64,000 bases of DNA from Ostreococcus lucimarinus (taxonomy: Eukaryota), in the NCBI GenBank assembly GCA_000092065.1, contig CP000584.1; one strand, given 5' to 3'. The notes below the pieces were generated by a model. The model saw nothing but the letters and a program-made list of their open reading frames with translations. It was not told the DNA's origin and made no database searches. Position numbers and translations under genes: made by a program. This document shows positions 27,001 through 54,689 of this stretch, piece by piece (within the stretch, counting starts at the first letter, position 1; each line of letters begins with the position of its first letter).

Positions 27001-27379
27001 CAAAGAAAGCCAAGCGCGATGGATGTCAGAACAAGCTGTCGAGCGACCGACGAAGAAAGGTGCCAAGGGTCTCGGTGCGGCTCCTGTCGGTGAGGCCACG
27101 AGCGATCTTTCCGAAGACGATGACGAGCCCGCACCCGAGACGCGCGCGCCGCCCACTGCCGAGGAACTCGCGCGTCAGAAAGAAGCCCTCGCGGCGGCCG
27201 GTTTAGCCGACAGCGACGACGAAGACGAAGACGAAGACGAAGACGCGCAACCGAGCGCCGACGTCGAAGCACCGGCAGAAAAGAAGCGTTCCGCTGACGA
27301 AACTGACGAAGCCCAAGCTGAAGCCGCCGCTCCCAAGCGTCGCCGACGCGCCGTCGTCGACGACGACGACGACGAGTGA
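24029..27379 (+). CDS. CTR9: RNA polymerase II-associated factor CTR9 (Paf1 complex TPR protein); proposed join(24029..24237,24439..27379)
   Basis: Exon 1 is MSPRNAVAVALLNDPNECVVVDLDALPTDVEDVASVLQAELAPLEAWIEVTEAYLRRGDARGFETLMEM, with a GTGCGCGCC donor at 24238 and a tatag acceptor at 24438. Exon 2 contains PVRLGIGACQYKLGDFKTAKLAFARVLKLDERNVEAMLGLALCEL, matching the CTR9 TPR core, followed by a charged coiled C-terminus ending KRRRRAVVDDDDDE. Confidence 0.75.
24294..24315. repeat. (GAAC)5 microsatellite inside the proposed CTR9 intron
   Basis: gcgaacgaacgaacgaacgaaagc. Confidence 0.8.
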
Positions 27380-34540: not shown

Positions 34541-37500
34541 TTACTCTGGTTTGAGACTCTCTGGGGAGGAGCCATTGTCTTCGTCGCTGCCAGCTCTAGC
34601 CTCTGCCCTTGACCGTCTTCGGAACACTCCTTGAGCAGACGAAAGCCAGCCAGTTAAAATACTCGCCGACGCCGTGCTGAGTGTTTTTGGACGTCTCGTA
34701 TCGAATGCCAACTCCGGATCGTCCGATGACTCAAGATCGGAAGAGCTACCAGAGTCGGAAGTGAGCGCTTGGCGTTTTGGGCCTCCGGACAGCGGCGTAT
34801 TCGCGAGGCTCATTTCCTTTTCTGCGCGCGAGCGTTGCAACCATTGACTCATCACCGAAGCAGCCACGTAAGAAACTGGTTGGCGTTCTGGTGAGGCGGA
34901 ATCACTGGACAACTGAGAAGACGAATCACCGGAATCATCCGAAAGATTCGCTTTCGGTGCAGACGGAGGCACGCTTGCGCGCATCTCTCTCGCTCTCGTC
35001 AACCAGTCTCGCATGACCATCTTTGAAGTTTGACTCATGTGCTCAGTCGTGGCGTACTTGGGTTCTGTATCAGTGTCACTTTCCGACGAGAAGTCAGTCG
35101 AAGAGAACACAGCAGTATTCGTGAGCGACGATTGTCTGTTTGCACGAAGTTGCTTAACCGCAGCCAACCAACCCGTAAGGGCGGCAGAAGAAGCTTCGGA
35201 AAGATTGACAGGCGGGAACCGTTGGAGACCAGCCTCTGTCTCACTTTCAGACGTATCAGAGAGCATGCGGAGATTTACTCCGCGTCCAGATGCTCTCGAA
35301 GCGGCGTGTGTGAGCCATATTCGCATGGCTGCTTCAGCACCCACTGATAGCTTCACTTCTCCGAAGTCTTCTTCCATATCCGAGTCTGACTCTGACATCT
35401 CACCAGCCTTCATTCTACGACGCACAGCTTTTCCGAGTTTCAGCCGCCTTGCAGTACGAGGAGATAGAATTTCTTGTAACTGATCAATGACCCAGTCCCT
35501 ATTCTTTGACATGAAAAGATGGCGGAACTGATCACTCGTGAGGTCGGCCGTCGTGACATCCATCGTTTGGAGGCTGTCGCCACCGCTATCCTCAATCACG
35601 GCTGCCATTTTAGGTACGAAAATGGAAGAAAAATCCTCATCAAGAGAATCCTCGATGATGATTTCCCCAGACGTGATCGAAGAAGTGATTCGCCAGAGGC
35701 CGAAGTGATTTGCCAAGAGGAGGGCGAGACGCTTTGCCGTGTAAGATGCGCCGAGAACCATGAGAACACAAGCCCAGAAGAGGATATCTTCAAACATGTT
35801 GTAGTTTGCTCGGAGCATCATGGAGAGAGCGAGGACGAACAAGAAAGATCCCGAGCCGCCGAGCGCAAGCACAAAGTAGAACTGACTCGAGAAGCACATT
35901 TGATCAATCGCGCGAAGACCGGGGTCAATTGATTCATCGTAAACGCGTTCGAAACCTTTCCATCGCGACGTACGATTGATGAATCGATATCGAGCGTACT
36001 TCAAATACTCGTACACCTTCCAGCCATGGAACAATTCCTGAATGTTGAAAGTTATGATGTCCATGACAATCCAGAACGGAATAATCACGACAGAGAAGAG
36101 AAGATAAATCAAAAGATCCTTCTTTCTGAAACCGTACAGGTACGACAGTCTCAGCTGGTCGTTGAAATCCCAGAAAAAGAAAATGAAGAAAGGCGTCATG
36201 TAGTTAACAGCCGTGTTTACGCCGTAAGCGGCGAGGAAGCCCATTAAATCTTCGACCAACGTATCTTCTGCATCGATTTTTTCCTCTACTTCGACGTCAT
36301 CGTCGTCACCAAAGTTAAATGGTAACAAATTCATGATGTAGTTCACGACTGCGCTGATTTTGTCTGGGAGTACGAGGGCGCAGTACGCGATGAACGCATC
36401 AAGATATACGTACTCGACCATACCCATGATAGTCTCGAAAAAGAAACCAAGGGTGAAATCTGTAAAGTCATCGGCTCCGATCGTCGCAACGCCAACGGCT
36501 GAAGCAAGTACGACCGATACTGGAGCGAGTAAGAAAGCTTCTCCCAACGCGGTTTCTATCTGCATTTCCATGATTACGTGAGCGACCTTCAAGAGGAAGA
36601 AAATGGTAAAGAACTGGACACCGAACGTATCAGTAAACGAGAACTCAATCAAGAAGACATTTGTCACGTTAACTAAGATATTCATCAAAACGAAATGACT
36701 TCGTTTCCAGACTTCTGGTTTGAACATCACTTCATCGACGTAGCGCTCGTCCTCCAATTCCTTCTCTTCTTCGTCTTTCAGTTCGGCAGGGACTAAGATT
36801 TCGGCGGCGCATCCCATCATATACATACCAGCTGTCAAAAAGCAGACTGCGTATCGACCAGCGGTCGCTTTTTCTACGACAGCTGGATCGATTTCACGGC
36901 CGATATTATCAATACTGATCGGGAACTCTGTAATGATTGGGAACGCGACAAACACGGCCCGGAGTCCGAACTGCGCTGTCGCAAACGGTAACATGCCGAG
37001 CGTGACACCCATCAGAGGTGGACCAATCATTATTCGAAGATATGGTAAGAATCGGAATCTCGGTGGTTCTTTCAATAGTGTGAAGATTCTCACGACCACC
37101 CACACAGAAAAGATCAACAACACGACGAGCATTCCGATCGCAAAGAAAAGCGCCAAGTAGAACAGGAAATCAAAAGCAAAGAAATTGAGCAAATCGAACC
37201 AACCTAGCGCTGATACCGCCACGCTAAGCGTGTAAGTACCATCGTGAGCCGTAGCGGATACGTATTCGTCCATCGTCACCGTGGCCGCGATGATTCGTTT
37301 GTCTGAGTCGGTGAATTGATAGTACAAGATCTCAAATTCAACCTTCGTCGGCATCAAACCAGCCGTCAAAACGAATCCTTCGACGGGCGCAAAAATCACA
37401 GGAATATTTTCTTGCGCCGTGATATCGGCCATGTACTTCTCTTTATTTGCGGCTGGCTCCGTCTGGTCGTTCGCCAGGGCGCTTGCTTCGAAAAGAGCGT

Positions 37501-40500
37501 CTTGACTTTCAGCCTCCGCTGTCAAGTAGAACAAGGTGTCACCCTCAGCTTCGTACCAACGCTTCTTTGCTGAAGCTTCTGTGTAGGCCTCTTCATAGAA
37601 ACAATCGATGGTTAACTCGAGCTCATCTGCAACTGCTGCTTGAACTTGCGGAGAGTATTGATTGATGAAGACTGTTTCTTCTTTTGGCACCAACGTGGTC
37701 TCACCATAACTGACAAACGTGCGATCTTCGCCAAACGTGACGGGCTTGTACGGGTTTTCAGTGAGGTGCGAAAAGAAAATATGACTGTCGAATCCGCGGC
37801 AAGCAGAAAAGAAAGGCAAGTAGTCCATCGCGAACAGCGTCTGGTCAGCCGCCCACAAACCTTCATTGAGCAGATACTTTTCTTGCTCGTACACGTCTGG
37901 AAGTGAAAGAGTGATAGTTTCGTCGGTTTGGCCATCCTCGTTCACTATCACCCAATCCTCTGCTTGCGTCGACGTTAAATCAATGTGCGCTTGGCTGGGA
38001 GAATCTTCGGCTGTTAGCACGTTTTGCTGTCGCAGATATTTGAACTTCTTCCACTCCGCACCATACGTAGAGTTGTAATCGATGGCGGCACGGGCATCAA
38101 GCCTTCTACAACCAGGATCTTGGTTAATATTGGCGCACTCGAAGTAATCGGTCGACACTGATCGATACATTGTCGAGGCCACAGGAGCATTCAAGGGCGC
38201 TTGATACTCTTCGTCAATTTCGAATGGCAAAATGGCGTGCACGGAATACGTCGGCGTTGCACTTGCACGCTCTGGAAATTCGACGTCGATGCAAATACTG
38301 TTCAAGAACGACGCACGATTATCCTCTTGATATCTACCATCCAGCATTCTCAGTTCAATTCTGAAAGGCAAATCATCCAAAGCTTGAATGGATAGTTCGT
38401 GCATACCGCGTTTCCAAACGTAGTTCCCAAAAGTTGGATTCTCAACGTTGTAGCCCGTCGCAGTACCATCGCTATTTCTCGCAAACCAGAACGGCAACTC
38501 TAAAGATTCTTGAGAAGCGGGACACTTCTTTTCCTGCTCCTCACCGGCTATGACCTTCATATTCAGCCATGTTATGCCATCGCCTACATCCCATGGCGGG
38601 CATGGCACGGACTTGTATTCGCTTGCAGGGCACAAGGTGTCATCAATCACTGGATTTGTGAAAATAAGCAGCTCGTAATGTTCGCCGTACTTCAGATTTT
38701 CGTTGATTGTCCGCCAATCAAGCCTCAATTTGGCCGTATGACCTCGAGGTAGAGTGAACTTCATCAAAGGGATATTGTTCTCGTCAACGGCGGCGATGCT
38801 GTTGTCATCTGACAGAATGAATGTCGGGTTCAGGAGTTCCCAATTTTTGTTTGTGCAACTGCCCATGCCCATGTAGTCAAATGGGTCGGTGGGTCCTGTC
38901 GCGTTTGAACTAGAAGTGTTCGTCGTATCGATCTGCAATAGAGTGCGACCTGCAGCGATTTGGCTCTCTACTTCCCGAAGCCATTCAGTGTCACGACCTG
39001 TGGCGTTGATTGTTTTGTAATATGTTTTCTCAATCAAGTCAAAACTGACGGGCATGACTCTCCAGAAAGTGATCAAATCTGCAGAGCACTCGTCCAAACT
39101 TTGTGCCGACGGAGACGACGCCGTCCCTGTGGGACATCGGTTGAGCACTTGTCCAGTTCCCGTCGGACAGAAGAAGCAAGCTTGACACGGGAACTGAGTA
39201 CGCGTAGAGTAAGACGCTCCAGCGGGACAGTAGTAACCAGCGGGACATTTGTTGAAAAATTGTGTTTCCGGAGTAGTACCCGGTCCACAGAAGTATCCGT
39301 CGGGGCACTTTTGTTCGGCAATCGATGTTCGAGCGTCGCACACGTAACCCTCCGGACACAAATCCGCTTCACCTTCTGGATCGAGTTGTAAAAGAACACA
39401 CTTGGAGGCGTCGTAAGCCTCGGTGTTGTCCGCATCGCAATAAGCAGAGTACTCGTTTAACGCAGCTGTACCTTGCCCACGAGGTTTGTTATTGCTCATG
39501 CCATCAATGGCGCACACAAGTCCTGAGTTACACGGCAAACATAACGATTCTTCGGTCAAGCCAATAGATGACGACCAGGTTCCTTTCGGACACTGACGGC
39601 ACGCAATGGAGTCCCGCGCAGAGCGGAAATAACCTGCAGGACATGCGGTTGGTTTGAATGTGCCTTCGTCGACGCACTCGTAGCCTGCAGCGCATGTTAG
39701 ACACTCCTGGAACCCTTCGTAAGGCGTATAGGTGCCCGGAAGACATGTAACGGCTGCGGAGTTACCTTGTCCAGATGTGTATGAACCGCGCGGCGCTGGA
39801 ATCGGAATGTAAGTACGTTTCGGACAGTAATGACCCTCGGTACAAGGTCTCATTGGATTATATACATCCGTCGCCGATTCAGAAACCACAGTGGAATCCC
39901 CTGTAGCCCATTCGCAGAAACTTCCTTCCTTACACGGCTGCGGTTGCTTGAAAGAACCCTCCAACACGATCGAAGTTGTTACACCCTCCGTACAGAACGT
40001 CGTGGGAGGACACGGCTTTGGTCGGAAGTTGTCAACGTTCAACGCAATTGGAGATGCATCGACAATAGCTGCCACATCAATAATTGCGAGAGGATCACGG
40101 GTGACGGTATTTTCAAGGCAGTAATGTCCGGCGGGACAACGGGTACCTGCGACGGCCAGACCTTCAGTGTCGCACACGAAGCCGGGTGTGCACACTTCGG
40201 GCGCCTCACGAGCAAAACCTGGGCAAATCGTGCCTTTTGGACATTTTTGACATGAGTCTTTGCCATAATCGGAGTTGTACTCGCCGGGAAGACATGGTTT
40301 CGGTTCGGCGTTGGCGACACCTGGACAATACATTCGCTTTGGGCATCTCAACTGCTGACCAGGAGGACAGTAATGTCCTGGAGGACACGGACCTACGCCT
40401 TGCGGTGTGATAGAACCAGGTTCACAAACATAACCGGCATAGCACTGCTGTGGAGTGGTGAAATTGTATGCGATACTCGCACTCGACACAACACCGGCGG

Positions 40501-43500
40501 TACAGTACATGCCAAATGGACAAGGTAGTGGCCGCTCGGCAACAGTGAAGTCAGTAAAGTTACTCGTTCGCGTACCCTCCAAACAATAATGGCCGGGTGG
40601 ACATAGTTTATTCGGTACAGTAAGGCCAGTAGAGTCACATACCGCACCCCTCGGACAAATGATCGGGATCATTGAGCCCGCGTCTGGCGAAATGTAGCCC
40701 ACTGGCGTTGGAAGACAGTCAGCTTGGCCGGTTCTGGGTTGGAACGTCCCTGGCGGGCATAAGGTGAAATTTTTTCCACCGCCACAGAATGCGCCTCGTG
40801 GACATAAAATGGCTTCACTTTCAGGGCAGTACGATCCAGACGGACATTGTGCGAAATGGAACAGCAGTCGCTGTTCTGAAAAGTCGACTCCATTTGTGGA
40901 GACTTCGACGAACACTGTACGAGTGCCACTTTGCTCCACGCCCGCAACACAAAGAATAGATCTGGATGACAAGAAAGTTGCTGTCGCAAGCTCTTGTCCA
41001 AATCGACACGTTAAACTGGAAGTATTGACAAAATTTGAACCAGTTATGAAAATGGGGCTTCGACTACCGCTCAGACCAACTTTCGGAATGATACCAGAAA
41101 TTTTTGGTGGAACTTGGTAGACAAACGTTGCCGTGTTGATGGTCGAAAGATCACGATCGTTCCCAGAAATGCTAATATCTGCAATTCCTAATCCTCGTGC
41201 CGGCGTGATGCACGTAAGGACGTCGCTTTGAGTGTTGTATGACGTAATTGGAAAGAAGGTGCCGATGCGGCAACTGTAACGCGCGCCATCGGTCAGGCCA
41301 TTCACAGACACCGAGAGCGTGGTTCCACCGTTCTCCGATCCTGTCTCGGGAGACACAGCGGAAATCATCAAATCGTCAATGTACTCGAACGCGGTACCGT
41401 AACTTGAAATAAAACCCGGATCGTCACGAGGAGCCATTCCAATGCCCACTCGGCGCTCAGTAGACCAAGGTGGAGTGATGCAAAGTCCAAGCGCAGACGA
41501 CACCACGTGCGCGCTTGTTTGCTCGTTGCCAAAGTAACAATAGCCAGACTCGTGCAGATTATCTCCGTCGACATGGAGTACGGTTGTTCCGCTAGCCGTA
41601 CCAATACTAGGGTGAACATTGAGAACGACAGGTGGCATGAAAACTTCAAATCCAATCGGTGTTGCAGCGTCGGGCAAAACCATGATTTCAAGAACAGTAA
41701 AACCGAATCCAGAAGGCGGCGTGTCGCAAGTGATCGTTCGCTGATCTTCAAACGTCGCCTGCGCGACCTGTCCATGTAGTTTGCAGCCTAGGTACGCGCC
41801 GTGTGGCAAGTATATTGCACTGTTGGACATCAACTTCAACGTTGTGTCTCCGGCCGCAACGCTCCTCTTCGGCGAGACAAAAGATGGGACGAGTGGAGTG
41901 AAATATTCAAAGCTACCAACCGATGCGTAATCCTTTGAGTTGTACGTCAAAGAGCCAACAACCACAGTACCATTGAGCCCAGCAGGAGAGATGCAAGTGA
42001 CAGACGTCGACGAACGCTGTTCCGAGGTGCTGATTGGACCTATAGTGCCAAACCGACAGAAGATTTCTTGTTCGGTGGCGTCTTCCGCTAAGTTTCCAAT
42101 ATGAAAAGTGAACAGATTGCCTCCGTTTTCCGACAGATATGGGTTTTCCAGACTCTGACTAAGAAAGTCGAAGTCATCCAAATATTGGAACGCCGCAACT
42201 ATCTCGGAAATATAATTTTCATCATCTCGGGGACTGACGCCAAGCGAAACCATGGGCGAATTCCCACTGAGGACAGGAGAAGTACACACACTGAGAGCGG
42301 ACGAAATGGCGTACGCTGTGGTGTTTTGATCACCGAAATGACAGAAACTTGACTCGTGCAAGTGTTCTCCGGCAACGTGGATCACGGAGGATCCACTGTA
42401 GAACCCGACCGACGGAACCATGCTTGTGACAACAGGCGGCACAAAGATGTCAAAGTCTACCCCGACGCCGTCGAGACCTATGGTAGATAACTCCACAAAT
42501 CCCGCCGAAAGAATCGGAACGGGGCAGCTGAGCGTGTATCTTACACAGTCTCTTTGATTACCGCCGGAACACGTAGATGTCCGAACAGCCTGTGACGATA
42601 GAACGGGAAATAACCCAAACATGCATCCCTTTGGCGTCGAGCTCAAACTGTGCCCGGTGGCTTCAAGGACTACGTCAGCAAGGCCCTCGTTCGAAGCTCT
42701 CCCTGGCACGACATGCATGACCGTCATATCCTCCTCGGAATAAATCAAGACAAAATTGGTAAAGTAAGAAGACGTCAAGTGAGATGACAGCCAGACCCGG
42801 ATGGCATCGGGCGACGTCGGTGAGTGCGCCGGAGTCACGAATTCAAAGCTACTTCCCGAGCTTCGCACATACATCGGGCCGATTGAGCCCACGTGTCCAG
42901 CGGGCGCATCCACCAGTTCTTCAAGTATTCCGACAGAAGTTAGCGAGGAAATTTGTATCGTGTCACCTCCAGAGGTTGCCACCGTTTCCGCGGAGATATC
43001 CAGAAGAGTCGGAGCGGGAATGTAACTGATGGACGTTGTACCCATTTCGTCGTAGTTCAAGCTTCCACCAGTATCGACGTATAACGCAATTCTTCCTTGG
43101 TTATTGGAGAAGTACGGTGACTCGCACGTCACCAAGGTCGACGAATGAACTTTTGCGGGCACATTTACGTCGCCAAAGTAGCACTGCACTGACCCACCAG
43201 CCACATCGAGCAAATCTTCACCACTGATAGTGACTAATTCACCACCAGAATTACTGATCAAAGTTGGGTATGCTGACACTAGAATCGGATCAGGTTGGAA
43301 TAAGAACAACGAATCGGTTTCATCTTTCCCAGGTGAGGCACCTAAACTTATTTGAGCGAACCCTGGGGCGTACGCGGGCATGATACACTCAGATACATAA
43401 GGATTCGTGGAGATGGACGTGGCTGAGACGAAAAATCCAGCGACGTGACACTTAATAGAAGTTTCCATTGGGTTTTCATGGAGAATACGAACAGCAACGC

Positions 43501-46500
43501 CTCCACTCACGGATCCGAATGACGGATACACCGCCGAGGAAGACACTTCGACGGTTTCGTGATAGCTGAAAGGTTGTTTCACCGACGTGAACATCTCACC
43601 GAATAAACGAGCATACATGGGAATGGTACCCGCGATGTGCGCGGGAACTCGACATTCTAGACCATTCCCGGTCAGTTGTCCGATGATGGGACCAAGACTT
43701 CCGAATTTGCAAGCACAATTGTCAAATGATTGCTGATACGGATCAACTTTGTAGTAAATTATCGCAATAGACCCTCCATCTTCGTTACTTTCTTGAGGCG
43801 ACACGTGTAAAGGATTATCTTCCTCCTTGATGTACTCAAAGACAATACCAGAGGACTCAAATTCATCGTCCGTGAGGCTTGTTGAACCACTTGACAGAAA
43901 ACTGAGAACTGCAGAGCCAGCATCATTCGCTGGTTGCTCGATCACAACTAGAGCACTTGACACAAACTGTACCGGAGAGAATTTGGTGCTTCCAAAAACA
44001 AACTTGTTGTGCGTGACTTCGTTGAAGTGAACGCCAGTCAATTTTATTATTTCTCCTCCAGCTTCTGCGCCATCATACGGCTGCAAATTAGTAATCTGCG
44101 CATGAGGTTCATAACTGAGCTGTATTTGCGAAGAATCCCACACGCTCACGTCGTGAATTTGCACCCCAACAGCGACAAAACCGGAGCTGTGCGCTGGAGC
44201 GAGACACAAAACGAGACCGTTTGACTCCACTTTTGCAACTGCCGCGTGAAGATCGAACACGCAAGCGACTGGTAAGGTCGCTAGCGAAGAAGGCAATGTG
44301 CTCGGTGAAATCATAAGCTCCACCAAAGATCCCCCATCTAACGATACCGACGTGCGGTATGGCTCAGTGAGATCTATGTTGGCAATGTATTCGTACAGAA
44401 GTGTCGTCGCCGCATTGTCACGCTCATTCATAGCCACAGTCACTGGAACTGTCGCAGGTGAATGGGCAGGCAGGATACATTCAACTTTTTCGGATGAACC
44501 CTGCGTAAGGGAAATTCCAGAGATCGTACCAACTTTGCATGATATTACGCTCAAATCCGTGGAAAAGTCTCCATAGATGTCAACCACAGCACCGCCGGCT
44601 TCCAATCCTCGCGCAGCTGGGTGATCTATTTCGAGTCCAGGAAGAAGAATGAAAGTTATTTGGAAATCCGCACTTTGTTCCACGTCGTTGTATACAAGTT
44701 GTAAAGCAGTGTCATCCTTGCCTTCGGGCGTCACACACACGACGAGCGCCGAAGAAATTACGTGTATAGATGACTTTGCAGTACCTGCACTTGTCGTGTA
44801 ACCGCACGAAGCACTGTAATTCGTACCGCCCCAGATCATATTGGATCCCGTCACATATACCAAACTTCCCCCAATCGTTGGGAATGTGAGTGGAGTCGCT
44901 CTCATGAGTTTCGGTTTGGCAACATAATGGAACTCGAGAGCTGACGACGTAAAATCTTGCAAGTTCATAGAGACATCGATCACCGTGAATCCAGATTTAG
45001 ACGCCGGAGCATTGCAAACAGTATTTGATCCGAAGATGAATGCATTCGTAGTGGTTGAACCAAACCTACACGAAAGATGACTTCCGTAGAAGTTTTCACC
45101 GAACAAAGTCACCGAGGTGCCGCCGGTAACAAAACTCGATTCTGGTATTGTCATTGATGACAACGTCGCGATCACCTTGTACTCAAATGTAGCCGCCGAT
45201 TGACTCAGCTTAATTTCAAACGCAGTATTGTGATGGAACACGTTGACTGGGACTGAACCTGCGCTGTGCGCAGGAGAGACGCAAGACGCCGCATTCATGG
45301 ACAACCATCGTCCAAGAACATTCGAAATGGTTCCAATCCTGAAAGCCAGTGAAACGTCGTTTCGAAACGCCAGGCCATCAAATGAAAGAATAGTACCACC
45401 TTGAGACGGCCCAGTCTTGGGAACTACCCGATGTATGACCGAGGAAGATGTGTTCATGAACTCAAACGGTAAGCCTGGAACCGACCAATCAAAGGCATTG
45501 TTTGAGACTGCAAGGTCATGGTATCCGACCTCCATGCTCGGAGATTCGCACATCACTTGCGAGGGTGAAATAAACGCTGCACGGAATGGAGCTAATGTAC
45601 CGAATCGACACAAAGAAGAGGGAGAAAAGTGATCACCATACACCACGATGGCTGTCCCACCGATGGACGGGCCAGACAGCGGAAGCAAGTGATCCAGCAA
45701 CACCTTCCTCGTTAAAATATCATTTGCATCGGTACTGGAGACGATGTTATTGCCGGAGCTATCGACAATTCTTATATCGTACTCGTTTACGCCGTTGTTA
45801 TCTTCGGGTAACCCACAGAGAACAGAACCATCGCTGAGGACGATGCCTGGGACCAAGGCGTCACCATTTCCAAGATTGCAATACACATCTTGACCAGGAA
45901 CAAATCCCGTACCAGTCACAGTTGCGGTATTATTATCGTTGTTTATAATTGTGGTCACTGACGCTTCAGTAGTATACAAGAAAGTCACCTGCGGACCATC
46001 AGCAAACATGGCGCCGAACTCGCTGACCATGCCGATGTCAAAATTCACCCAACCCTCTACGTGCGCAGGCGCTAGGCACCTATATTCATCTGCAGCGATC
46101 CATTCGCCCACGACAGGACCAATTGAGCCAAACTTACACGCGAGATCGTGTGAATCACTGAAAGAGTGCCCGGCAGCTGTGACTGTGGTACCGCCCTCGA
46201 CTAAACCCATTGATGGTGATAGAGCCGTGACCACTGGAGGTGGATCAAACAAAAATTGCGGCTTCATCGCTAATTCTACTGCGGTTGCTACTACCGATAC
46301 GTCCAGTGCATATGCACCTTCAAACATGCTAGGCGTTTCGCAAATCATCAACGCCGAGGAAACATGTGTTGCCGCTACGGTAGTCGTACCAAACCTACAG
46401 ACAGGATTGTCTTGCAGCAAATGCTCCCCTTCTATGTGGACTAATGTTCCACCTCCTATGGCACCAACTCTGGGCGCTATTCTAGTAATTTCAATCACGT

Positions 46501-47659
46501 CCTTTAATTCAAGCTGCACACTGTCTGATGCAAAGACGGAATATTGGAAATCTTGACCGTTCGAGGCCACCGCAACGGAGACAAAACCGATTCCAGCTGG
46601 AGCTACGCAGGTCACAGCGTTGGTTCCCGCGAGACCTGGAACTTTATGCGAGCCAAATTTACACGCAAGCTCTGGTGTTTGCACGACACTCTGTACCGTG
46701 ATAGACACATGGGAAGATCCTGCCGAAGAGACCTGGAACGGCGCGATTGCATCGACAACGAGACTCGATAGAAAAGTGAACGAGTTTGAGAATGTCACAT
46801 AGTCTCGATGATTCATCGAGACGCTCAGGGGCTTAGCCGCTAAAGAAGATGCAGGCGTCGCGCACTCCAATGTATTTTCATTCTGGTAAATCGCGGAGAC
46901 CTCAATTGCTCCGAAGCGACACCGCAACAAACTTGTCGGCGCAAAATTTTGTCCCGTCAGCGTCACCAACGTGCCCCCTTCGCCAGTACCGACTGCTGGA
47001 CTGACGCGACTTATCGACGGCGCGCCGATATAAATGTGCTGGACGCTACTGAAAGCCTCGAAAAAGTTTGAGGAAGTCAAAGACACGTCCACAGCGACGG
47101 TTCCCTTGTCGATCGAAGGTGATTCACACTTCATCAAACCAGACGAGACGATGTGCCCAGTAGTCGTGAGGTCGCCAAATCGACAGTACTGCGACACGTG
47201 CATATCAGCACCGAATACGTCTACGATACCTCCTGAAATACCATACACAGAGTTCACGGCGTCCACCTTGGCGCCACTCACAAATTGATATCCTTTTGTT
47301 CTCAAAAAGTCTCCCGTTTCATTGTTGAGCGCGAATTCGACGTTTACGAAACCCTCCGTGTGTGACGGTGCTGTGCATTTGACCGTCTCGGCGTCTACGT
47401 AATACGCCCGAACGAACTCATTATCAAACTTGCACGTGAGCTCTGCCCCTGGTATATTCTGAACCGCTGCCAGCTGCTTACTCGAGAGCGTGACGACTTC
47501 GCCGCCGCCCACGTGTCCCGCGCTCGGATACATCCATTCCACCTCTGGAATCTCAAATCCTCGAGCGCCGCACGCGAAGCACGCCGCCACCGTGATTAGG
47601 AATAAAACCAACCAAATCGCACGCGATGGACGAAACGACCTCATATCGCTCGTCCTCAT
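34541..47659 (-). CDS. Giant 4372-aa receptor-like membrane protein, single 13.1-kb exon: signal peptide; about 20-24 IPT/TIG-like repeats; ephrin-receptor/furin-like Cys-rich repeats; unknown ectodomain; about 11-TM domain; Ser/Asp-rich cytoplasmic tail with WLxxAR repeats
   Basis: Uninterrupted ORF 34541..47659. N-terminus: MRTSDMRSFRPSRAIWLVLFLITVAACFACGARG. There are more than 17 clearly readable repeats with the pattern C[RK]FG-x(15-20)-C-x-[AST]P, for example CRFGDLTTTGHIVSSGLMKCESPS and CKFGSHKVPGLAGTNAVTCVAPA. Cys repeats occupy about nt 39070-40850 (CQKCPKGTICPG, CPAGYFRSARDSIACRQCPKGTWSS, CPAGYYCPAG). Hydrophobic helices occupy about nt 35690-37210. The tail is at 34544-35690. Confidence 0.8.
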   Translation of the reverse strand: MRTSDMRSFRPSRAIWLVLFLITVAACFACGARGFEIPEVEWMYPSAGHVGGGEVVTLSSKQLAAVQNIPGAELTCKFDNEFVRAYYVDAETVKCTAPSHTEGFVNVEFALNNETGDFLRTKGYQFVSGAKVDAVNSVYGISGGIVDVFGADMHVSQYCRFGDLTTTGHIVSSGLMKCESPSIDKGTVAVDVSLTSSNFFEAFSSVQHIYIGAPSISRVSPAVGTGEGGTLVTLTGQNFAPTSLLRCRFGAIEVSAIYQNENTLECATPASSLAAKPLSVSMNHRDYVTFSNSFTFLSSLVVDAIAPFQVSSAGSSHVSITVQSVVQTPELACKFGSHKVPGLAGTNAVTCVAPAGIGFVSVAVASNGQDFQYSVFASDSVQLELKDVIEITRIAPRVGAIGGGTLVHIEGEHLLQDNPVCRFGTTTVAATHVSSALMICETPSMFEGAYALDVSVVATAVELAMKPQFLFDPPPVVTALSPSMGLVEGGTTVTAAGHSFSDSHDLACKFGSIGPVVGEWIAADEYRCLAPAHVEGWVNFDIGMVSEFGAMFADGPQVTFLYTTEASVTTIINNDNNTATVTGTGFVPGQDVYCNLGNGDALVPGIVLSDGSVLCGLPEDNNGVNEYDIRIVDSSGNNIVSSTDANDILTRKVLLDHLLPLSGPSIGGTAIVVYGDHFSPSSLCRFGTLAPFRAAFISPSQVMCESPSMEVGYHDLAVSNNAFDWSVPGLPFEFMNTSSSVIHRVVPKTGPSQGGTILSFDGLAFRNDVSLAFRIGTISNVLGRWLSMNAASCVSPAHSAGSVPVNVFHHNTAFEIKLSQSAATFEYKVIATLSSMTIPESSFVTGGTSVTLFGENFYGSHLSCRFGSTTTNAFIFGSNTVCNAPASKSGFTVIDVSMNLQDFTSSALEFHYVAKPKLMRATPLTFPTIGGSLVYVTGSNMIWGGTNYSASCGYTTSAGTAKSSIHVISSALVVCVTPEGKDDTALQLVYNDVEQSADFQITFILLPGLEIDHPAARGLEAGGAVVDIYGDFSTDLSVISCKVGTISGISLTQGSSEKVECILPAHSPATVPVTVAMNERDNAATTLLYEYIANIDLTEPYRTSVSLDGGSLVELMISPSTLPSSLATLPVACVFDLHAAVAKVESNGLVLCLAPAHSSGFVAVGVQIHDVSVWDSSQIQLSYEPHAQITNLQPYDGAEAGGEIIKLTGVHFNEVTHNKFVFGSTKFSPVQFVSSALVVIEQPANDAGSAVLSFLSSGSTSLTDDEFESSGIVFEYIKEEDNPLHVSPQESNEDGGSIAIIYYKVDPYQQSFDNCACKFGSLGPIIGQLTGNGLECRVPAHIAGTIPMYARLFGEMFTSVKQPFSYHETVEVSSSAVYPSFGSVSGGVAVRILHENPMETSIKCHVAGFFVSATSISTNPYVSECIMPAYAPGFAQISLGASPGKDETDSLFLFQPDPILVSAYPTLISNSGGELVTISGEDLLDVAGGSVQCYFGDVNVPAKVHSSTLVTCESPYFSNNQGRIALYVDTGGSLNYDEMGTTSISYIPAPTLLDISAETVATSGGDTIQISSLTSVGILEELVDAPAGHVGSIGPMYVRSSGSSFEFVTPAHSPTSPDAIRVWLSSHLTSSYFTNFVLIYSEEDMTVMHVVPGRASNEGLADVVLEATGHSLSSTPKGCMFGLFPVLSSQAVRTSTCSGGNQRDCVRYTLSCPVPILSAGFVELSTIGLDGVGVDFDIFVPPVVTSMVPSVGFYSGSSVIHVAGEHLHESSFCHFGDQNTTAYAISSALSVCTSPVLSGNSPMVSLGVSPRDDENYISEIVAAFQYLDDFDFLSQSLENPYLSENGGNLFTFHIGNLAEDATEQEIFCRFGTIGPISTSEQRSSTSVTCISPAGLNGTVVVGSLTYNSKDYASVGSFEYFTPLVPSFVSPKRSVAAGDTTLKLMSNSAIYLPHGAYLGCKLHGQVAQATFEDQRTITCDTPPSGFGFTVLEIMVLPDAATPIGFEVFMPPVVLNVHPSIGTASGTTVLHVDGDNLHESGYCYFGNEQTSAHVVSSALGLCITPPWSTERRVGIGMAPRDDPGFISSYGTAFEYIDDLMISAVSPETGSENGGTTLSVSVNGLTDGARYSCRIGTFFPITSYNTQSDVLTCITPARGLGIADISISGNDRDLSTINTATFVYQVPPKISGIIPKVGLSGSRSPIFITGSNFVNTSSLTCRFGQELATATFLSSRSILCVAGVEQSGTRTVFVEVSTNGVDFSEQRLLFHFAQCPSGSYCPESEAILCPRGAFCGGGKNFTLCPPGTFQPRTGQADCLPTPVGYISPDAGSMIPIICPRGAVCDSTGLTVPNKLCPPGHYCLEGTRTSNFTDFTVAERPLPCPFGMYCTAGVVSSASIAYNFTTPQQCYAGYVCEPGSITPQGVGPCPPGHYCPPGQQLRCPKRMYCPGVANAEPKPCLPGEYNSDYGKDSCQKCPKGTICPGFAREAPEVCTPGFVCDTEGLAVAGTRCPAGHYCLENTVTRDPLAIIDVAAIVDASPIALNVDNFRPKPCPPTTFCTEGVTTSIVLEGSFKQPQPCKEGSFCEWATGDSTVVSESATDVYNPMRPCTEGHYCPKRTYIPIPAPRGSYTSGQGNSAAVTCLPGTYTPYEGFQECLTCAAGYECVDEGTFKPTACPAGYFRSARDSIACRQCPKGTWSSSIGLTEESLCLPCNSGLVCAIDGMSNNKPRGQGTAALNEYSAYCDADNTEAYDASKCVLLQLDPEGEADLCPEGYVCDARTSIAEQKCPDGYFCGPGTTPETQFFNKCPAGYYCPAGASYSTRTQFPCQACFFCPTGTGQVLNRCPTGTASSPSAQSLDECSADLITFWRVMPVSFDLIEKTYYKTINATGRDTEWLREVESQIAAGRTLLQIDTTNTSSSNATGPTDPFDYMGMGSCTNKNWELLNPTFILSDDNSIAAVDENNIPLMKFTLPRGHTAKLRLDWRTINENLKYGEHYELLIFTNPVIDDTLCPASEYKSVPCPPWDVGDGITWLNMKVIAGEEQEKKCPASQESLELPFWFARNSDGTATGYNVENPTFGNYVWKRGMHELSIQALDDLPFRIELRMLDGRYQEDNRASFLNSICIDVEFPERASATPTYSVHAILPFEIDEEYQAPLNAPVASTMYRSVSTDYFECANINQDPGCRRLDARAAIDYNSTYGAEWKKFKYLRQQNVLTAEDSPSQAHIDLTSTQAEDWVIVNEDGQTDETITLSLPDVYEQEKYLLNEGLWAADQTLFAMDYLPFFSACRGFDSHIFFSHLTENPYKPVTFGEDRTFVSYGETTLVPKEETVFINQYSPQVQAAVADELELTIDCFYEEAYTEASAKKRWYEAEGDTLFYLTAEAESQDALFEASALANDQTEPAANKEKYMADITAQENIPVIFAPVEGFVLTAGLMPTKVEFEILYYQFTDSDKRIIAATVTMDEYVSATAHDGTYTLSVAVSALGWFDLLNFFAFDFLFYLALFFAIGMLVVLLIFSVWVVVRIFTLLKEPPRFRFLPYLRIMIGPPLMGVTLGMLPFATAQFGLRAVFVAFPIITEFPISIDNIGREIDPAVVEKATAGRYAVCFLTAGMYMMGCAAEILVPAELKDEEEKELEDERYVDEVMFKPEVWKRSHFVLMNILVNVTNVFLIEFSFTDTFGVQFFTIFFLLKVAHVIMEMQIETALGEAFLLAPVSVVLASAVGVATIGADDFTDFTLGFFFETIMGMVEYVYLDAFIAYCALVLPDKISAVVNYIMNLLPFNFGDDDDVEVEEKIDAEDTLVEDLMGFLAAYGVNTAVNYMTPFFIFFFWDFNDQLRLSYLYGFRKKDLLIYLLFSVVIIPFWIVMDIITFNIQELFHGWKVYEYLKYARYRFINRTSRWKGFERVYDESIDPGLRAIDQMCFSSQFYFVLALGGSGSFLFVLALSMMLRANYNMFEDILFWACVLMVLGASYTAKRLALLLANHFGLWRITSSITSGEIIIEDSLDEDFSSIFVPKMAAVIEDSGGDSLQTMDVTTADLTSDQFRHLFMSKNRDWVIDQLQEILSPRTARRLKLGKAVRRRMKAGEMSESDSDMEEDFGEVKLSVGAEAAMRIWLTHAASRASGRGVNLRMLSDTSESETEAGLQRFPPVNLSEASSAALTGWLAAVKQLRANRQSSLTNTAVFSSTDFSSESDTDTEPKYATTEHMSQTSKMVMRDWLTRAREMRASVPPSAPKANLSDDSGDSSSQLSSDSASPERQPVSYVAASVMSQWLQRSRAEKEMSLANTPLSGGPKRQALTSDSGSSSDLESSDDPELAFDTRRPKTLSTASASILTGWLSSAQGVFRRRSRAEARAGSDEDNGSSPESLKPE

Positions 47660-53330: not shown

Positions 53331-54689
53331 CTAAAAAGAATACACCTTCGACGTCTGCTTCTCTTCGGCGAAACGTCGAGCGAATCGCTCGTTTCGTTCG
53401 ACGTCGACATCGACAAATGCAGACGATACGTCTCCGTCGCCTAATCTGGATTTTCGTTCGCTAATTTGAGCCTCTAGTTCTGCCCGATGTCGGAGACTCG
53501 CTTCGGTCGCCATGCGAAGCTTCTCGTCGAGTTGACGCCTCGCGAGCTCCATGTCTTCCTCGTTTGCCCTGCGCCACGCGAGCTCTTCCTCCTTCTCCGC
53601 GCGCTTCTTCGCCTCGGCCTCGGCGATTTGTTGGCGACGACCATCAATCACATCCTTCATCAACTGTTCTCTTTGATGTGCTTCAAGTTCTTCGCGCGCT
53701 CGCAATTTTCTTTCGTGCTCCAGTCGCGCCTCCTCGACAGCCACGTCGTCTATTTCTTTGTTCGCGCGCTTCTCTGAAGTGAGCTCCTCTAGATACTTTC
53801 GGAAGAGGATCTCTTCCTCGCGTCGCCGAGCGACGAGCTCGGCGTGCTCTTTGGCATGTATGCGCTCCTCTTCCATCGCGTTTTCAACCAATCGAGCGTC
53901 GCACGCCCGTTCCTCCTCGAGCGCCGCCAACGACTCCAACTGCCGCTCTGCGTTCGAGCGAAGCAAGTCCGCGTGGACTTGGCGCTGCCTGAGCGCTTCC
54001 TCCCGCTGATTCGCGGCGTCGATCGTATTTTCTTGTTCCCATCGCGCGTTCAGTTGCGCCCGTTCGTAACGTCGCTCCTCTAAGCTTGCGAGTCTGTCAT
54101 GCTCTCGCGACGACATTTGCTCAAAGAGCGCGCGCGAATGCGCTTCTCGCGCCGCTTTCAACGCCGCATCTCGTTCATCGATGCGCGCCGAATCCTCCGC
54201 GCGAAGCGCGGAAATCGTTGCATTTATTTTTTTCTCGCGCTCGGCGTGTTCCACCGCAAGGCGCCTTCGCTCTTCAACCTGCGCTTGTCGACCCATTTGC
54301 ACTTCATTCGCCAAAGCCGCGCGAGCGCCGTCGCGCGCCGTCTTGTTTGACTCTTTCCACTTTTTGTAAGTCATCTCCTCCACGTGCTGTTTCCGCTCCT
54401 CCTCGCGCTTGGCCAACAATTCGCGCGCGCGCGCCTCCAATTCCATCCGTCGCGCCGCCGCGCTGACGCGTTTTCCCGCCATCTCTTCCTCGTATCGCGC
54501 CTCCTCGCTCGCCAGTTTGACTCGAAGCGCGTCTCTTCGCCGCGTCAGCGCCGCCGCCCGCTCCCGCGCTCTTCGTTCGTGTTCTCGCGCCTCGATCGAT
54601 CGCGTCTCCGCCTCCGGCGCTCTCGATCGCCAATTCACGTCTTCCTGTCGCTCTCGCAGCGCCTGGGTCGCACAAACAAAAATCCACAT
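53331..54689 (-). CDS. E/R-rich TPH-domain-type coiled-coil protein (MNS1/CFAP53/trichoplein-like)
   Basis: 452 aa with continuous ERxxE/RRxxL heptads (RREEEILFRKYLEELTSEKRANKEIDDVAVEEARLEHERKLRAREELEAHQREQ). No other domain is present; the start or upstream exons are uncertain. Confidence 0.5.
   Translation of the reverse strand: MWIFVCATQALRERQEDVNWRSRAPEAETRSIEAREHERRARERAAALTRRRDALRVKLASEEARYEEEMAGKRVSAAARRMELEARARELLAKREEERKQHVEEMTYKKWKESNKTARDGARAALANEVQMGRQAQVEERRRLAVEHAEREKKINATISALRAEDSARIDERDAALKAAREAHSRALFEQMSSREHDRLASLEERRYERAQLNARWEQENTIDAANQREEALRQRQVHADLLRSNAERQLESLAALEEERACDARLVENAMEEERIHAKEHAELVARRREEEILFRKYLEELTSEKRANKEIDDVAVEEARLEHERKLRAREELEAHQREQLMKDVIDGRRQQIAEAEAKKRAEKEEELAWRRANEEDMELARRQLDEKLRMATEASLRHRAELEAQISERKSRLGDGDVSSAFVDVDVERNERFARRFAEEKQTSKVYSF

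What the first reader, a model, noticed from the sequence alone, without database searches (positions are those of the whole stretch)
34541..47659. Intronless 13.1-kb gene encoding a 4372-aa IPT/TIG-repeat, Cys-repeat, 11-TM receptor-like giant protein of unrecognised architecture
One uninterrupted reading frame fills 20% of the window in an otherwise compact locus that averages about 1.5 kb per gene. From the N-terminus the product has:
- a cleavable signal peptide
- more than 17 clearly readable tandem copies (the 20-24 estimate comes from region length divided by a 90-aa unit) of a C[RK]FG...C.[AST]P unit typical of IPT/TIG Ig-like domains (plexin/Met/fibrocystin type)
- about 590 aa of CxxCPxGxYC ephrin-receptor/furin-like cysteine repeats
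- a roughly 620-aa module with no motif I can place
- about 11 transmembrane helices
- a 380-aa acidic/Ser-rich cytoplasmic tail.
The sequence of modules (Ig-repeat array, large unknown ectodomain, polytopic domain, cytosolic tail) parallels polycystin-1/REJ-type receptors but uses different building blocks. I did not see a PLAT, GPS, PbH1 or kinase signature. It could be a new class of algal cell-surface receptor or adhesion/channel-associated protein.
Basis: partly seen in the sequence, partly recalled or inferred. Interest (0 to 1): 0.9.

Follow-up and report, generated by a model that had tools for sequence, protein, structure and literature searches.

The report
Giant Ig-rod membrane protein, uncharacterised family
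A real, intronless 13-kb gene of the tiny marine alga Ostreococcus lucimarinus encodes a 4372-residue surface protein whose long rod of about 25 Ig-like domains is joined to an 11-helix membrane module; that module has no named relative or solved structure in the libraries I could search, yet it recurs in giant proteins of green algae, cryptophytes, diatoms and oomycetes.

Summary
Window 34541-47659 (-) is one uninterrupted 4372-codon ORF, identical to the annotated but uncharacterised O. lucimarinus CCE9901 protein XP_001417452.1 / UniProt A4RVQ0.

Layout:
- a signal peptide
- 23 clear plus 2 degenerate IPT/TIG domains
- a 587-aa Cys-rich stalk of about 22 CPxGxYC units (weak Ephrin_rec_like match)
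- an unassigned ectodomain
- an 11-TM domain
- a cytosolic tail

- The last ~720 aa before the tail (a juxtamembrane domain plus 11 TM) is a sharply conserved module. It occurs in 886 50%-identity clusters, always C-terminal in giant proteins of up to 7926 aa; those scanned carry TIG arrays, some with Ephrin_rec_like repeats. Named members come from Prasinoderma, Mesostigma, Guillardia, Albugo, Pythium, Cantina and Ditylum.
- The module has no Pfam model and no PDB relative by sequence or fold. It is not related to polycystin-1, CRMPs, plexins or fibrocystin.
- The tail carries five copies of a family-wide "acidic-Ser cluster + amphipathic ...WL..AR helix" repeat.

So it is neither algal-specific nor unique, but a member of a widespread, undescribed family. 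The most likely role is a long-reach adhesion/sensing receptor that signals through the 11-TM module and tail. This role is inferred, not shown.

The parts
34541..47659 (-). Complete intronless CDS (4372 codons plus stop), identical to O. lucimarinus XP_001417452.1 / A4RVQ0
   Evidence: dN/dS against the 95%-identical orthologue L006 is 0.19.
47558..47659 (-). Signal peptide (aa 1-34; hydrophobic core aa 14-32; predicted cleavage before FEIPEVEW)
   Evidence: Hydropathy. The L001 orthologue has a different signal-like peptide ending at the same position.
40865..47548 (-). IPT/TIG array, aa 38-2265: 23 clear domains plus 2 degenerate ones in aa 1539-1741
   Evidence: Pfam TIG E=2.9e-156. Self-trained HMM finds 23 domains. 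Gap sequence read. Mean pairwise identity 21%, maximum 47%. Plexin and Met TIG regions are the only PDB sequence hits.
39086..40846 (-). Cys-rich stalk, aa 2272-2858: 55 Cys and about 22 CPxGxYC-type units (furin/ephrin-receptor-like)
   Evidence: Ephrin_rec_like E=7.9e-6, 26 bits against a cut-off of 23.1, 4 stretches.
37853..39085 (-). Unassigned ectodomain, aa 2859-3269. Strong alignment only in green-lineage homologues (Prasinoderma, Mesostigma, metagenomic); its C-terminal half (from about aa 3060-3080) also matches stramenopile and other family members weakly.
37169..37852 (-). Family-wide juxtamembrane ectodomain, aa 3270-3497: YLPFFS.C.GFD start, conserved Cys, W3368, and four long beta-strands leading into TM1
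35705..37168 (-). Conserved 11-TM domain, aa 3498-3985. Conserved polar residues: R3602, E3672, D3848, D3867 (mid TM9), E3875, Q3926, D3958.
   Evidence: AlphaFold2 helices, pLDDT mostly 80-94. Conservation over 89 sequences. K+R in loops 21 inside versus 3 outside.
35888..36043 (-). Most conserved stretch of the family: cytosolic TM9-TM10 loop, aa 3873-3924 (QELFHGWK.YEYL.Y.RYRF..R..RWK...DES....R..DQMCFSSQ)
34544..35704 (-). Cytosolic tail, aa 3986-4372
35489..35527 (-). Post-TM tail motif FRHLFMSKNRDWV (family consensus FRxxFLxxNRxW), aa 4045-4057
   Evidence: Present in 81 of 133 family tails.
34610..35395 (-). Five tail repeats (aa ~4089-4350; W4115, W4164, W4219, W4273, W4338): an acidic/Ser cluster followed by an amphipathic helix. 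HMM consensus SDSDESDDARFGPVTLSPAAKAVLRTWLSAARARRARR.
   Evidence: At least one copy in 90 of 134 family tails.

Best explanation
**What it is (shown).** This is a genuine single-exon nuclear gene of Ostreococcus lucimarinus. It encodes a plasma-membrane-type protein with its N-terminus outside and its C-terminus inside.

**Anatomy.**
- The roughly 2230-aa array of 25 IPT/TIG Ig-like domains should form a rod. At about 4 nm per domain (general knowledge of Ig-like folds) this comes to roughly 100 nm, about a tenth of the cell diameter.
- The rod sits on a disulfide-rich stalk of about 22 furin/ephrin-receptor-like hairpins.
- The stalk leads into a conserved beta-rich juxtamembrane domain that runs directly into an 11-helix membrane domain.
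- That core and the cytosolic tail behind it are the defining, most constrained parts of a large uncharacterised eukaryotic family.

**How it most likely works (inferred).**
- The rod binds or is pulled by something outside the cell, such as another cell, a particle, a surface glycan or a virus.
- The juxtamembrane domain passes that event to the 11-TM module.
- The 11-TM module changes conformation. It has a near-invariant Asp in the middle of TM9 and conserved Arg and Glu residues at helix ends.
- The output is read on the cytosolic side by the near-invariant TM9-TM10 loop and by five repeated basic amphipathic ...WL..AR helices in the tail. Each helix is preceded by an acidic Ser cluster (casein-kinase-2-like sites), so partner docking could be switched by phosphorylation.

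In short, it is a long-reach adhesion/sensing receptor with a novel polytopic transducer. It is laid out like polycystin-1 or apicomplexan CRMPs but is not related to them.
For: **Real gene under selection.**
- The ORF is exactly identical to XP_001417452.1.
- Colinear orthologues occur at 95%, 63-79% and about 50% identity. The first two sit in conserved synteny (OB-fold gene, TMF, RPS3), the third in partial synteny.
- dN/dS is 0.19 overall, 0.14 in the TIG array and 0.15 in the tail.

**Secreted N-terminus.** The signal peptide is conserved in position in orthologue L001.

**Extracellular adhesion-type modules.** TIG E=2.9e-156; PDB sequence hits only to plexin and Met TIG regions; Cys repeats.

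**The core is the constrained, defining part.**
- 79-92% identity in the ectodomain/TM region versus 63% in the TIG array and tail between Ostreococcus-type orthologues.
- 886 representative clusters match it, and 113 of 168 sequences fetched span the whole ~720 aa with the core always C-terminal.

**Topology and structure.**
- AlphaFold2 core model: pLDDT 77, pTM 0.75, 11 long helices.
- Positive-inside count 21 versus 3 puts the TM9-TM10 loop and the tail in the cytosol.
- Conserved intramembrane polar residues.

**Tail.** Repeats and the post-TM motif are conserved across distant lineages.
Against: - No experiment or transcript data for this gene was available, and no ligand, localisation or partner is known.
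- Nothing shows that the TM module signals rather than merely anchors or transports.
- No cytosolic catalytic or known adaptor domain is present (Pfam negative).
- GC3 is 0.51 versus 0.63-0.81 for neighbouring genes, which may mean low expression.
- Ostreococcus is a naked planktonic cell for which no adhesion behaviour is documented (my knowledge).
- The ~100-nm length and the phospho-switch idea are extrapolations.
- The AlphaFold database could not be searched, so a named structural relative may exist.
Confidence: 0.45

Rival explanations
1. Channel or transporter reading. The conserved 11-TM core is itself an ion channel or carrier, for example a force- or ligand-gated channel. The giant ectodomain acts as its tether or gate, and ion flux is the output.
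For: - The polytopic domain is large (about 490 aa), with a 93%-conserved Asp in the middle of TM9, conserved E3672, E3875 and R3602, and an invariant D3958.
- The TM region is the best conserved part between orthologues.
Against: - No internal repeat of the kind common in carriers was found.
- No Pfam channel or transporter family hits the window protein or 17 diverse cores.
- The oligomeric state is unknown.
Confidence: 0.2
2. Structural reading. The protein is a passive cell-surface fibril, a glycocalyx or cell-coat component of a wall-less cell, or a spacer. The 11-TM domain serves only as a robust anchor or assembly platform.
For: - Rod-like arrays of diverged Ig domains (mean identity 21%) and Cys-rich stalks are typical of structural surface proteins.
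- There is no recognisable signalling domain.
- Family members reach 7926 aa.
Against: - An anchor does not need about 720 aa kept at 79-92% identity while the rod drifts to 63%.
- It does not need a near-invariant cytosolic loop or conserved repeated tail motifs across eukaryotic supergroups.
Confidence: 0.2
3. Cell-cell recognition reading, a special case of adhesion. The protein is a gamete or kin recognition adhesin used in a cryptic sexual cycle, or the surface receptor exploited by prasinoviruses.
For: - Giant surface rods serve as sexual agglutinins in other algae (general knowledge).
- The family occurs in sexual lineages such as oomycetes and diatoms.
Against: - The TIG array is under purifying selection (dN/dS 0.14) rather than the fast evolution usual for mating or virus-receptor proteins.
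- Its neighbours are ordinary housekeeping genes in conserved synteny. Whether it lies on the mating-type or outlier chromosome was not tested.
Confidence: 0.1
4. The protein is a divergent member of an already described family: polycystin-1/REJ, apicomplexan/ciliate CRMP, fibrocystin or plexin.
For: - Shared building blocks (TIG; ephrin-receptor-like Cys repeats as in CRMPs, PMC9815656).
- Shared overall layout of a large ectodomain, a polytopic domain and a tail.
Against: - Pfam finds no PKD, REJ, GPS, PLAT, PKD_channel, Sema, PSI, G8 or PbH1.
- A PDB profile search is empty and fold searches are empty.
- hhalign of the family profile against the TgCRMPA, TgCRMPB, PbCRMP1 and PbCRMP2 TM cores gives probability <=0.3%.
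- CRMPs have 9 TM (PMC9815656); this protein has 11.
Confidence: 0.05
5. Annotation artefact. The ORF is really several genes, contains introns, or is a decaying pseudogene.
For: Metagenomic gene callers split the orthologues into 2-4 pieces.
Against: - The splits are frameshifts of long-read assemblies with overlapping, gap-free alignments.
- One contig carries three clustered G->N errors, and another ends in a Nextera adapter.
- The window frame is open for 4372 codons and under purifying selection throughout.
Confidence: 0.03

Closest known systems
Polycystin-1 / PKD1-REJ family (animals)
   Same: Giant N-out, C-in protein: an array of Ig-like repeats, a large unassigned ectodomain, 11 TM helices and a cytosolic tail. 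Presumed adhesion or mechanosensing logic.
   Different: The repeats are TIG, not PKD. There is no REJ, GAIN/GPS, PLAT or PKD_channel signature, no conserved His-Leu-Thr/Ser site before TM1, and no sequence or fold match to PDB chains. The host has no cilium (my knowledge).
CRMPs (cysteine repeat modular proteins) of Apicomplexa and ciliates (PMC9670195, PMC9815656)
   Same: Large ectodomain with EGF/ephrin-receptor-like Cys repeats next to a conserved C-terminal polytopic core. Proposed there as surface sensors that trigger rhoptry or mucocyst exocytosis. This is the best functional analogy.
   Different: CRMPs have 9 TM, not 11, and no TIG array. Profile-profile comparison of the cores gives probability <=0.3%. 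CRMP signature motifs such as KYGFL.NG...YWE and QPFDKRS are absent.
Plexins / Met / RON
   Same: IPT/TIG domains. These are the only PDB sequence hits (Plexin-A1 E=4e-10, Met E=3e-5).
   Different: Plexins, Met and RON have 3-6 TIGs, a Sema domain, PSI domains, a single TM helix and a GAP or kinase cytoplasmic domain. None of these is present here.
Fibrocystin / PKHD1 and PKHD1L1
   Same: Very long TIG arrays on a giant surface protein.
   Different: There are no G8 or PbH1 domains. Fibrocystin is single-pass, whereas this protein has 11 TM helices.
Uncharacterised 'IPT/TIG domain-containing / hypothetical' giants: Guillardia theta XP_005821996, Albugo laibachii CCA22724 (7926 aa), Pythium insidiosum GLD93027, Prasinoderma PRCOL_00000804, Mesostigma Mv09386
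   Same: True homologues. They share the ~720-aa core at E=1e-75 to 1e-245, and the five whose tails were inspected share the tail motifs. Those scanned with Pfam (Prasinoderma, Mesostigma and five metagenomic relatives) have TIG arrays, some also with Ephrin_rec_like.
   Different: The length and number of ectodomain repeats differ. The Ostreococcus protein has lost one otherwise 99%-conserved Cys pair. None of these proteins has a described function.

Membership tests
IPT/TIG domain proteins (Pfam PF01833) | Repeated ~85-aa Ig-like TIG domains above the Pfam gathering score | tested here: met
   508 bits against a cut-off of 20.9, 15 stretches. A self-trained HMM finds 23 domains.
Ephrin_rec_like / furin-like Cys repeats (PF07699) | Score above the gathering cut-off (23.1 bits) | tested here: inconclusive
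   26.0 bits when aa 2260-2890 is scored alone, but 18.7 bits in the whole protein. About 22 CPxGxYC units are seen directly. Homologues P0006 and P0025 also hit weakly.
Polycystin-1 / REJ | PKD repeats, REJ module, GAIN/GPS cleavage site, PLAT domain after TM1, PKD_channel domain in the last 6 TM | tested here: not met
   No such Pfam hits even at E<=10 on the segments. No conserved HL-T/S before TM1. No PDB sequence or fold match. Only the count of 11 TM agrees.
CRMP (cysteine repeat modular proteins) | Homologous 'conserved core' of two EGF-like domains plus 9 TM (PMC9815656) | tested here: not met
   hhalign probability 0.15-0.24% against TgCRMPA and TgCRMPB. Profile-profile comparison and hmmsearch in both directions with 4 CRMP cores were negative. 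This protein has 11 TM, not 9.
Plexin | Sema domain, PSI domains, single TM, cytoplasmic RasGAP domain | tested here: not met
   Only TIG-type Pfam families hit. The C-terminal part is polytopic.
Fibrocystin / PKHD1 | G8 and PbH1 (parallel beta-helix) domains, single TM | tested here: not met
   No G8 or PbH1 hits. 11 TM helices.
Unnamed 'TIG-rod + 11-TM core' family (defined here) | C-terminal ~720-aa core: YLPFFS.C.GFD start, conserved Cys, 11 TM, EFSYS in TM4, QELFHGWK...RWK...CFSSQ cytosolic loop | tested here: met
   The window protein was the query. 886 clusters at E<=1e-3 and 231 at E<=1e-30. 113 of 168 fetched sequences span the full core. 61 positions are >=85% conserved over 89 sequences.
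Unnamed 'TIG-rod + 11-TM core' family (defined here) | Cytosolic tail with the FRxxFLxxNRxW motif and repeated acidic-Ser + ...WL..AR helices | tested here: met
   The window protein has the motif at aa 4045 and 5 repeats. 81 of 133 family tails have the motif and 90 of 134 have at least one repeat.
Unnamed 'TIG-rod + 11-TM core' family (defined here) | Surface localisation and function | not testable with these tools
   No experimental data were found. Accession and keyword searches of the paper library returned nothing relevant.

The most novel reading that the evidence does not exclude
The ~720-aa juxtamembrane-plus-11-TM core is a previously undescribed, ancient eukaryotic membrane-transducer superfamily with a new fold. 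It would be a force- or ligand-operated channel or conformational switch, coupling ~100-nm Ig-domain rods to a phospho-regulated cytosolic docking tail. It is retained from streamlined picoalgae to oomycetes and diatoms. Ostreococcus, where gene targeting is possible (my knowledge), would be the minimal system in which to find out what it does.
Probability: 0.3. Interest if true: 0.85.

Novelty: new variant of a known kind. Interest (0 to 1): 0.6.

Why it matters
Ostreococcus has one of the most streamlined free-living eukaryotic genomes (about 13 Mb, roughly 8000 genes; my knowledge). Even so, it keeps a 13-kb gene, about 0.1% of that genome, under purifying selection.

The conserved core is shared with giant proteins of cryptophytes, diatoms, bigyran flagellates and oomycete pathogens. 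It has no Pfam model, no solved structure and no paper that I could find.

If the core is a signal or force transducer, it would be a widespread piece of protist surface biology that has gone unnoticed. Possible roles include cell-cell or cell-particle contact, virus attachment and mechanosensing. It would also be a candidate new membrane-protein fold.

If it turns out to be only an anchor for a surface fibril, the finding is still useful for annotation. It supplies a definable domain, tail motifs and about 900 clusters that could seed a new family entry.

Tried and rejected
1. **CRMP homology (my own lead).** TM-core sequences of TgCRMPA, TgCRMPB, PbCRMP1 and PbCRMP2 were taken from S2 Table of PMC9815656. 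hhalign and hmmsearch in both directions were negative. Rejected as homology, kept as an analogy.
3. **AFDB50 fold search.** The library was not installed, so no taxonomic or annotation survey by structure was possible.
5. **Word-indexed homologue searches.** These returned few proteins. The exhaustive representative search was what revealed the family.
6. **Internal duplication in the TM domain.** None found. The single hhalign hit was the overlap I had left between the two halves.
7. **Foreign origin as the cause of the low GC.** Rejected. Orthologues sit in conserved synteny, share the low GC in Ostreococcus-type relatives, and homologues occur across the green lineage.
8. **Apparent premature stop and contig breaks near window 36700-36830 in metagenomic contigs.** One contig has three clustered G->N errors, and another ends in a Nextera adapter. 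These are artefacts.
9. **GAIN/GPS-like autoproteolysis before TM1.** Suggested by the conserved N.FAF motif. No conserved His-Leu-Ser/Thr and no Pfam GPS or GAIN hit. Dropped.
10. **NCBIfam on the C-terminal modules and Pfam on 17 diverse cores.** Nothing consistent.
11. **Literature searches by accession and by keywords.** Nothing relevant.
Full report
**1. The observation**

Window 34541-47659 on the minus strand is a single ATG-initiated ORF of 4372 codons, and its translation has no internal stop. The next longest ORF in the window is 1042 aa. An open frame of this length cannot arise by chance: at about 3/64 stops per codon the probability is about e^-210 (my arithmetic).

The product is exactly identical to a deposited protein, XP_001417452.1 / ABO95745.1 / UniProt A4RVQ0 of Ostreococcus lucimarinus CCE9901. 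It is annotated only as 'predicted protein' or 'IPT/TIG domain-containing protein', on a 930,724-bp record. So the window is nuclear DNA of this picoalga. The genome annotators also modelled the gene as intronless. The gene itself is not a new discovery; what is unknown is what it is.

**2. Anatomy, checked module by module**

- **Signal peptide.** The hydrophobic core is aa 14-32. The orthologue on metagenomic contig L001 has an unrelated signal-like sequence that ends at the same place, immediately before the conserved FE(I/V)PEVEW.
- **TIG array.**
  - Pfam TIG scores 508 bits, E=2.9e-156.
  - An HMM trained on the protein's own repeats finds 23 domains between aa 38 and 2265, with regular 5-16-aa linkers and one 203-aa gap. 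That gap reads as two degenerate copies, giving about 25 domains.
  - The repeats are old, with mean pairwise identity 21% and maximum 47%.
  - The only PDB sequence hits are the TIG regions of plexins and Met.
- **Cys-rich stalk.** Aa 2272-2858 holds 55 Cys and about 22 CPxGxYC-type units. Ephrin_rec_like scores just above its cut-off when the segment is scored alone (26 versus 23.1 bits) and below it in the whole protein.
- **Unassigned ectodomain, aa 2859-3497.** No Pfam or NCBIfam hit.
- **Eleven TM helices, aa 3498-3985.**
  - They appear in the hydropathy profile and as long helices of an AlphaFold2 model built from a 17-sequence alignment (mean pLDDT 77, pTM 0.75, TM region mostly 80-94).
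  - With the N-terminus outside, loops predicted to be cytosolic hold 21 Lys+Arg and those predicted to be outside hold 3.
  - This supports an N-out, C-in topology and places the tail in the cytosol.
- **Tail, aa 3986-4372.** It is rich in Ser, Asp and Glu.

**3. What the surroundings and relatives show**

Neighbouring genes are ordinary eukaryotic housekeeping genes: TMF-like golgin, PP2A-type HEAT protein, Prp31, an MFS transporter, PIG-N and Rcd1/CNOT9.

Colinear orthologues lie on metagenomic contigs:
- at about 95% identity (L006)
- at 63-79% identity (L001)
- at about 50% identity (L005)

L006 and L001 are flanked by the same OB-fold gene, the TMF-like gene (named by Pfam only in L001) and RPS3; L005 shares only RPS3.

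Prokaryote-style gene callers split these orthologues into pieces. The pieces abut with overlapping, gap-free alignments in shifted frames, which is the signature of indel errors in long-read assemblies and not of introns. One short-read contig has a stop codon caused by three clustered G->N mismatches, and another ends in a Nextera adapter. These are artefacts.

Against the 95% orthologue, dN/dS is 0.19 overall, 0.14 in the TIG array, 0.15 in the Cys stalk and 0.15 in the tail. Values for two modules are inflated by the frameshift sites. All parts are under purifying selection. Between more distant orthologues the TIG array and tail are 63% identical, but the unassigned ectodomain and TM region are 79-92% identical, so the C-terminal core is the most constrained part.

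**4. The key result: a large unnamed family**

An exhaustive HMMER search of 1.84 billion representative proteins with aa 2891-3990 found 886 clusters at E<=1e-3, 553 at E<=1e-10 and 231 at E<=1e-30.
- The shared region is sharply bounded. It runs from about aa 3270 (start motif YLPFFS.C.GFD) to aa 3990, that is a ~230-aa juxtamembrane ectodomain plus the 11 TM helices.
- In 113 of 168 sequences fetched, the match spans the whole core. The core always sits near the C-terminus of a long protein of up to 7926 aa and is followed by a tail, about 290-820 aa in the 13 examples measured.
- Members that carry names come from:
  - Prasinoderma coloniale and Mesostigma viride
  - Guillardia theta, Albugo laibachii, Pythium insidiosum and Cantina marsupialis
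  - Ditylum brightwellii
- These span green algae, a cryptophyte and several stramenopile groups. All are annotated as hypothetical or merely 'IPT/TIG domain-containing'.
- All seven long homologues scanned with Pfam had TIG arrays, two of them also weak Ephrin_rec_like matches; two shorter, probably partial, sequences had no hit. None had a hit on the core.
- Seventeen diverse core sequences scanned one by one gave no consistent Pfam family.
- The Cantina and Ditylum sequences come from transcriptome assemblies, to judge from their record names (Trinity identifiers for Cantina), so family members are expressed.

The part of the ectodomain upstream of the core (aa ~2900-3215) aligns strongly only in green-lineage homologues; from about aa 3060-3080 onward it also matches other members, including stramenopiles, weakly.

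**5. Is the core related to anything known?**

- **By sequence: no.** A profile of the family against all PDB chain sequences gave only chance hits to designed coiled coils.
- **By fold: no.**
  - Foldseek against 350,542 PDB chains gave no hit at E<=0.001. The best was E=0.26 with TM-score <=0.15.
- **CRMP lead, tested and rejected.**
  - I suspected apicomplexan/ciliate CRMPs, which combine ephrin-receptor-like Cys repeats with a conserved polytopic core and are needed for rhoptry or mucocyst exocytosis (PMC9670195, PMC9815656).
  - I took the TM-core sequences of four of the six Toxoplasma and P. berghei CRMPs from that paper's S2 Table. Profile-sequence and profile-profile comparisons gave probabilities of 0.15-0.24%, and hmmsearch was negative in both directions.
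  - CRMPs also have 9 TM helices, not 11.
- **Polycystin-1, fibrocystin and plexin.** Each fails on its defining domains.
- **Internal repeats.** None was found in the TM domain.
- **Caveats.** The AlphaFold database library was not available. InterPro and PANTHER could not be consulted, and only open-access literature was searched, with no relevant result.

**6. Features that bear on mechanism**

Across 89 full-length cores, 61 positions are at least 85% conserved. On the outside these include conserved Cys residues and W3368.

In or at the ends of TM helices the conserved residues are:
- R3602, invariant, at the start of TM3
- E3672, in the EFSYS motif at the end of TM4
- D3848
- D3867, 93% conserved, in the middle of TM9
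- E3875
- Q3926, invariant
- D3958, invariant, in the TM10-11 loop

The single most conserved stretch is the TM9-TM10 loop (QELFHGWK.YEYL.Y.RYRF..R..RWK...DES...R..DQMCFSSQ; mean column identity 52% over 50 diverse sequences). By topology it is cytosolic.

The tail is not simply low-complexity. It begins with a family-wide motif, FRxxFLxxNRxW (aa 4045, found in 81 of 133 tails). It then carries five copies of a ~38-aa repeat made of an acidic Ser cluster followed by an amphipathic basic helix. The HMM consensus is SDSDESDDARFGPVTLSPAAKAVLRTWLSAARARRARR. At least one copy is detected in 90 of 134 family tails, and repeats were seen in the tails of Prasinoderma, Mesostigma, Cantina, Pythium and metagenomic members.

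Conserved cytosolic surfaces on a protein whose bulk is extracellular argue that information or a partner is handled on the inside.

**7. Most likely mechanism**

Shown:
- It is a secreted-N-terminus, polytopic protein with a very long Ig-domain ectodomain.
- It has a constrained 11-TM core and conserved cytosolic motifs.

Inferred:
- The 25 TIG domains form a rod of roughly 100 nm (about 4 nm per Ig-like domain, general knowledge) on a rigid disulfide stalk.
- Binding or pulling at the rod is transmitted through the beta-rich juxtamembrane domain. Its last strands run straight into TM1.
- The TM module then changes state.
- The cytosolic loop and tail helices recruit partners. The acidic Ser clusters, which look like casein-kinase-2 sites, could act as a phosphorylation switch. 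The basic Trp-anchored helices resemble calmodulin-binding peptides; this last point is speculation.

I put this adhesion/sensing-receptor reading at about 0.45.

Rivals:
- The core is itself a channel or carrier (0.2). This is supported by the buried Asp, but no fold relative exists.
- The protein is a passive surface fibril with an elaborate anchor (0.2). This is hard to square with the conservation pattern.
- It is a mating or virus-receptor adhesin (0.1). The TIG array is not fast-evolving.
- It is a divergent member of a known family (0.05).
- It is an annotation artefact (0.03).

**8. Novelty and score**

The gene model is already in the databases, and the building blocks of the ectodomain are familiar. 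The general idea of a giant Ig-repeat receptor on a polytopic domain is also known from polycystin-1 and CRMPs.

What appears to be new is the ~720-aa core and its tail motifs as a definable, widespread and wholly uncharacterised family with no solved or named relative. I classify it as a new variant of a known kind and score interest at 0.6. The most novel reading still open, a new superfamily of membrane transducers, gets probability about 0.3.

Noticed in passing
window 34541-47659 versus neighbours; L001 and L006: The giant gene is compositionally odd for this genome: GC 0.50 and GC3 0.51, against GC3 0.63-0.81 in ten neighbouring ORFs. The Ostreococcus-type orthologues share the low GC (0.50 versus flanks of 0.56-0.60). 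The ~50%-identical orthologue on L005 does not (0.63 versus 0.635). Conserved synteny argues against recent transfer. The cause (low expression, weak codon bias in a very long gene, or locally reduced GC-biased conversion) is unexplained.
   Followed up: partly
window ~37619-37699 (-), aa 3321 and 3347: Two Cys that are 99% conserved across the family (core positions 52 and 78) are both replaced in the O. lucimarinus protein, by T3321 and L3347. The other two conserved Cys (C3287, C3353) remain. Joint loss suggests that positions 52 and 78 form a disulfide that this lineage has dispensed with.
   Followed up: partly
window 53331-54689 (-): This 452-aa ORF has a trichohyalin-plectin-homology domain (E=5.7e-18). 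UniRef names its cluster mate 'Cilia- and flagella-associated protein 53', yet Ostreococcus has no flagellum (my knowledge). The deposited model XP_001417454.1 is only 321 aa, whereas the open frame and many metagenomic calls are 451-452 aa, so the gene model may be truncated.
   Followed up: no
window 47533-47659 (-), aa 1-42: Most metagenomic copies in the 90% cluster are called as 4330 aa, starting at Met43. That start would remove the signal peptide. This is a gene-caller choice, not a biological isoform as far as can be told. The orthologue L001 has a signal peptide at the position corresponding to M1.
   Followed up: partly
L002 2857-2872 (window 36814-36829); L003 1-46: Public metagenome contigs of the same gene carry artefacts. 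One has three clustered G->N mismatches that create a TGA at codon 3616. Another has a 46-nt end containing the Nextera adapter GTCTCGTGGGCTCGGAGATGTGTATAAGAGACAG. These explain why gene catalogues hold a 714-aa fragment (P0180).
   Followed up: yes
window 12256-13221 (+): This 322-aa ORF is present as such on more than 130 metagenomic contigs, but the deposited O. lucimarinus model (XP_001417175.1) is 215 aa. This is another possible gene-model discrepancy.
   Followed up: no
window 24431-27379 (+): This 982-aa TPR protein has a sub-threshold match to the TTC21/IFT139 N-terminal ARM repeat (32 bits versus a cut-off of 40). It is syntenic in L001 and L006. It is probably a generic TPR protein. 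I noted it only because an intraflagellar-transport relative would be unexpected in a non-flagellate.
   Followed up: no
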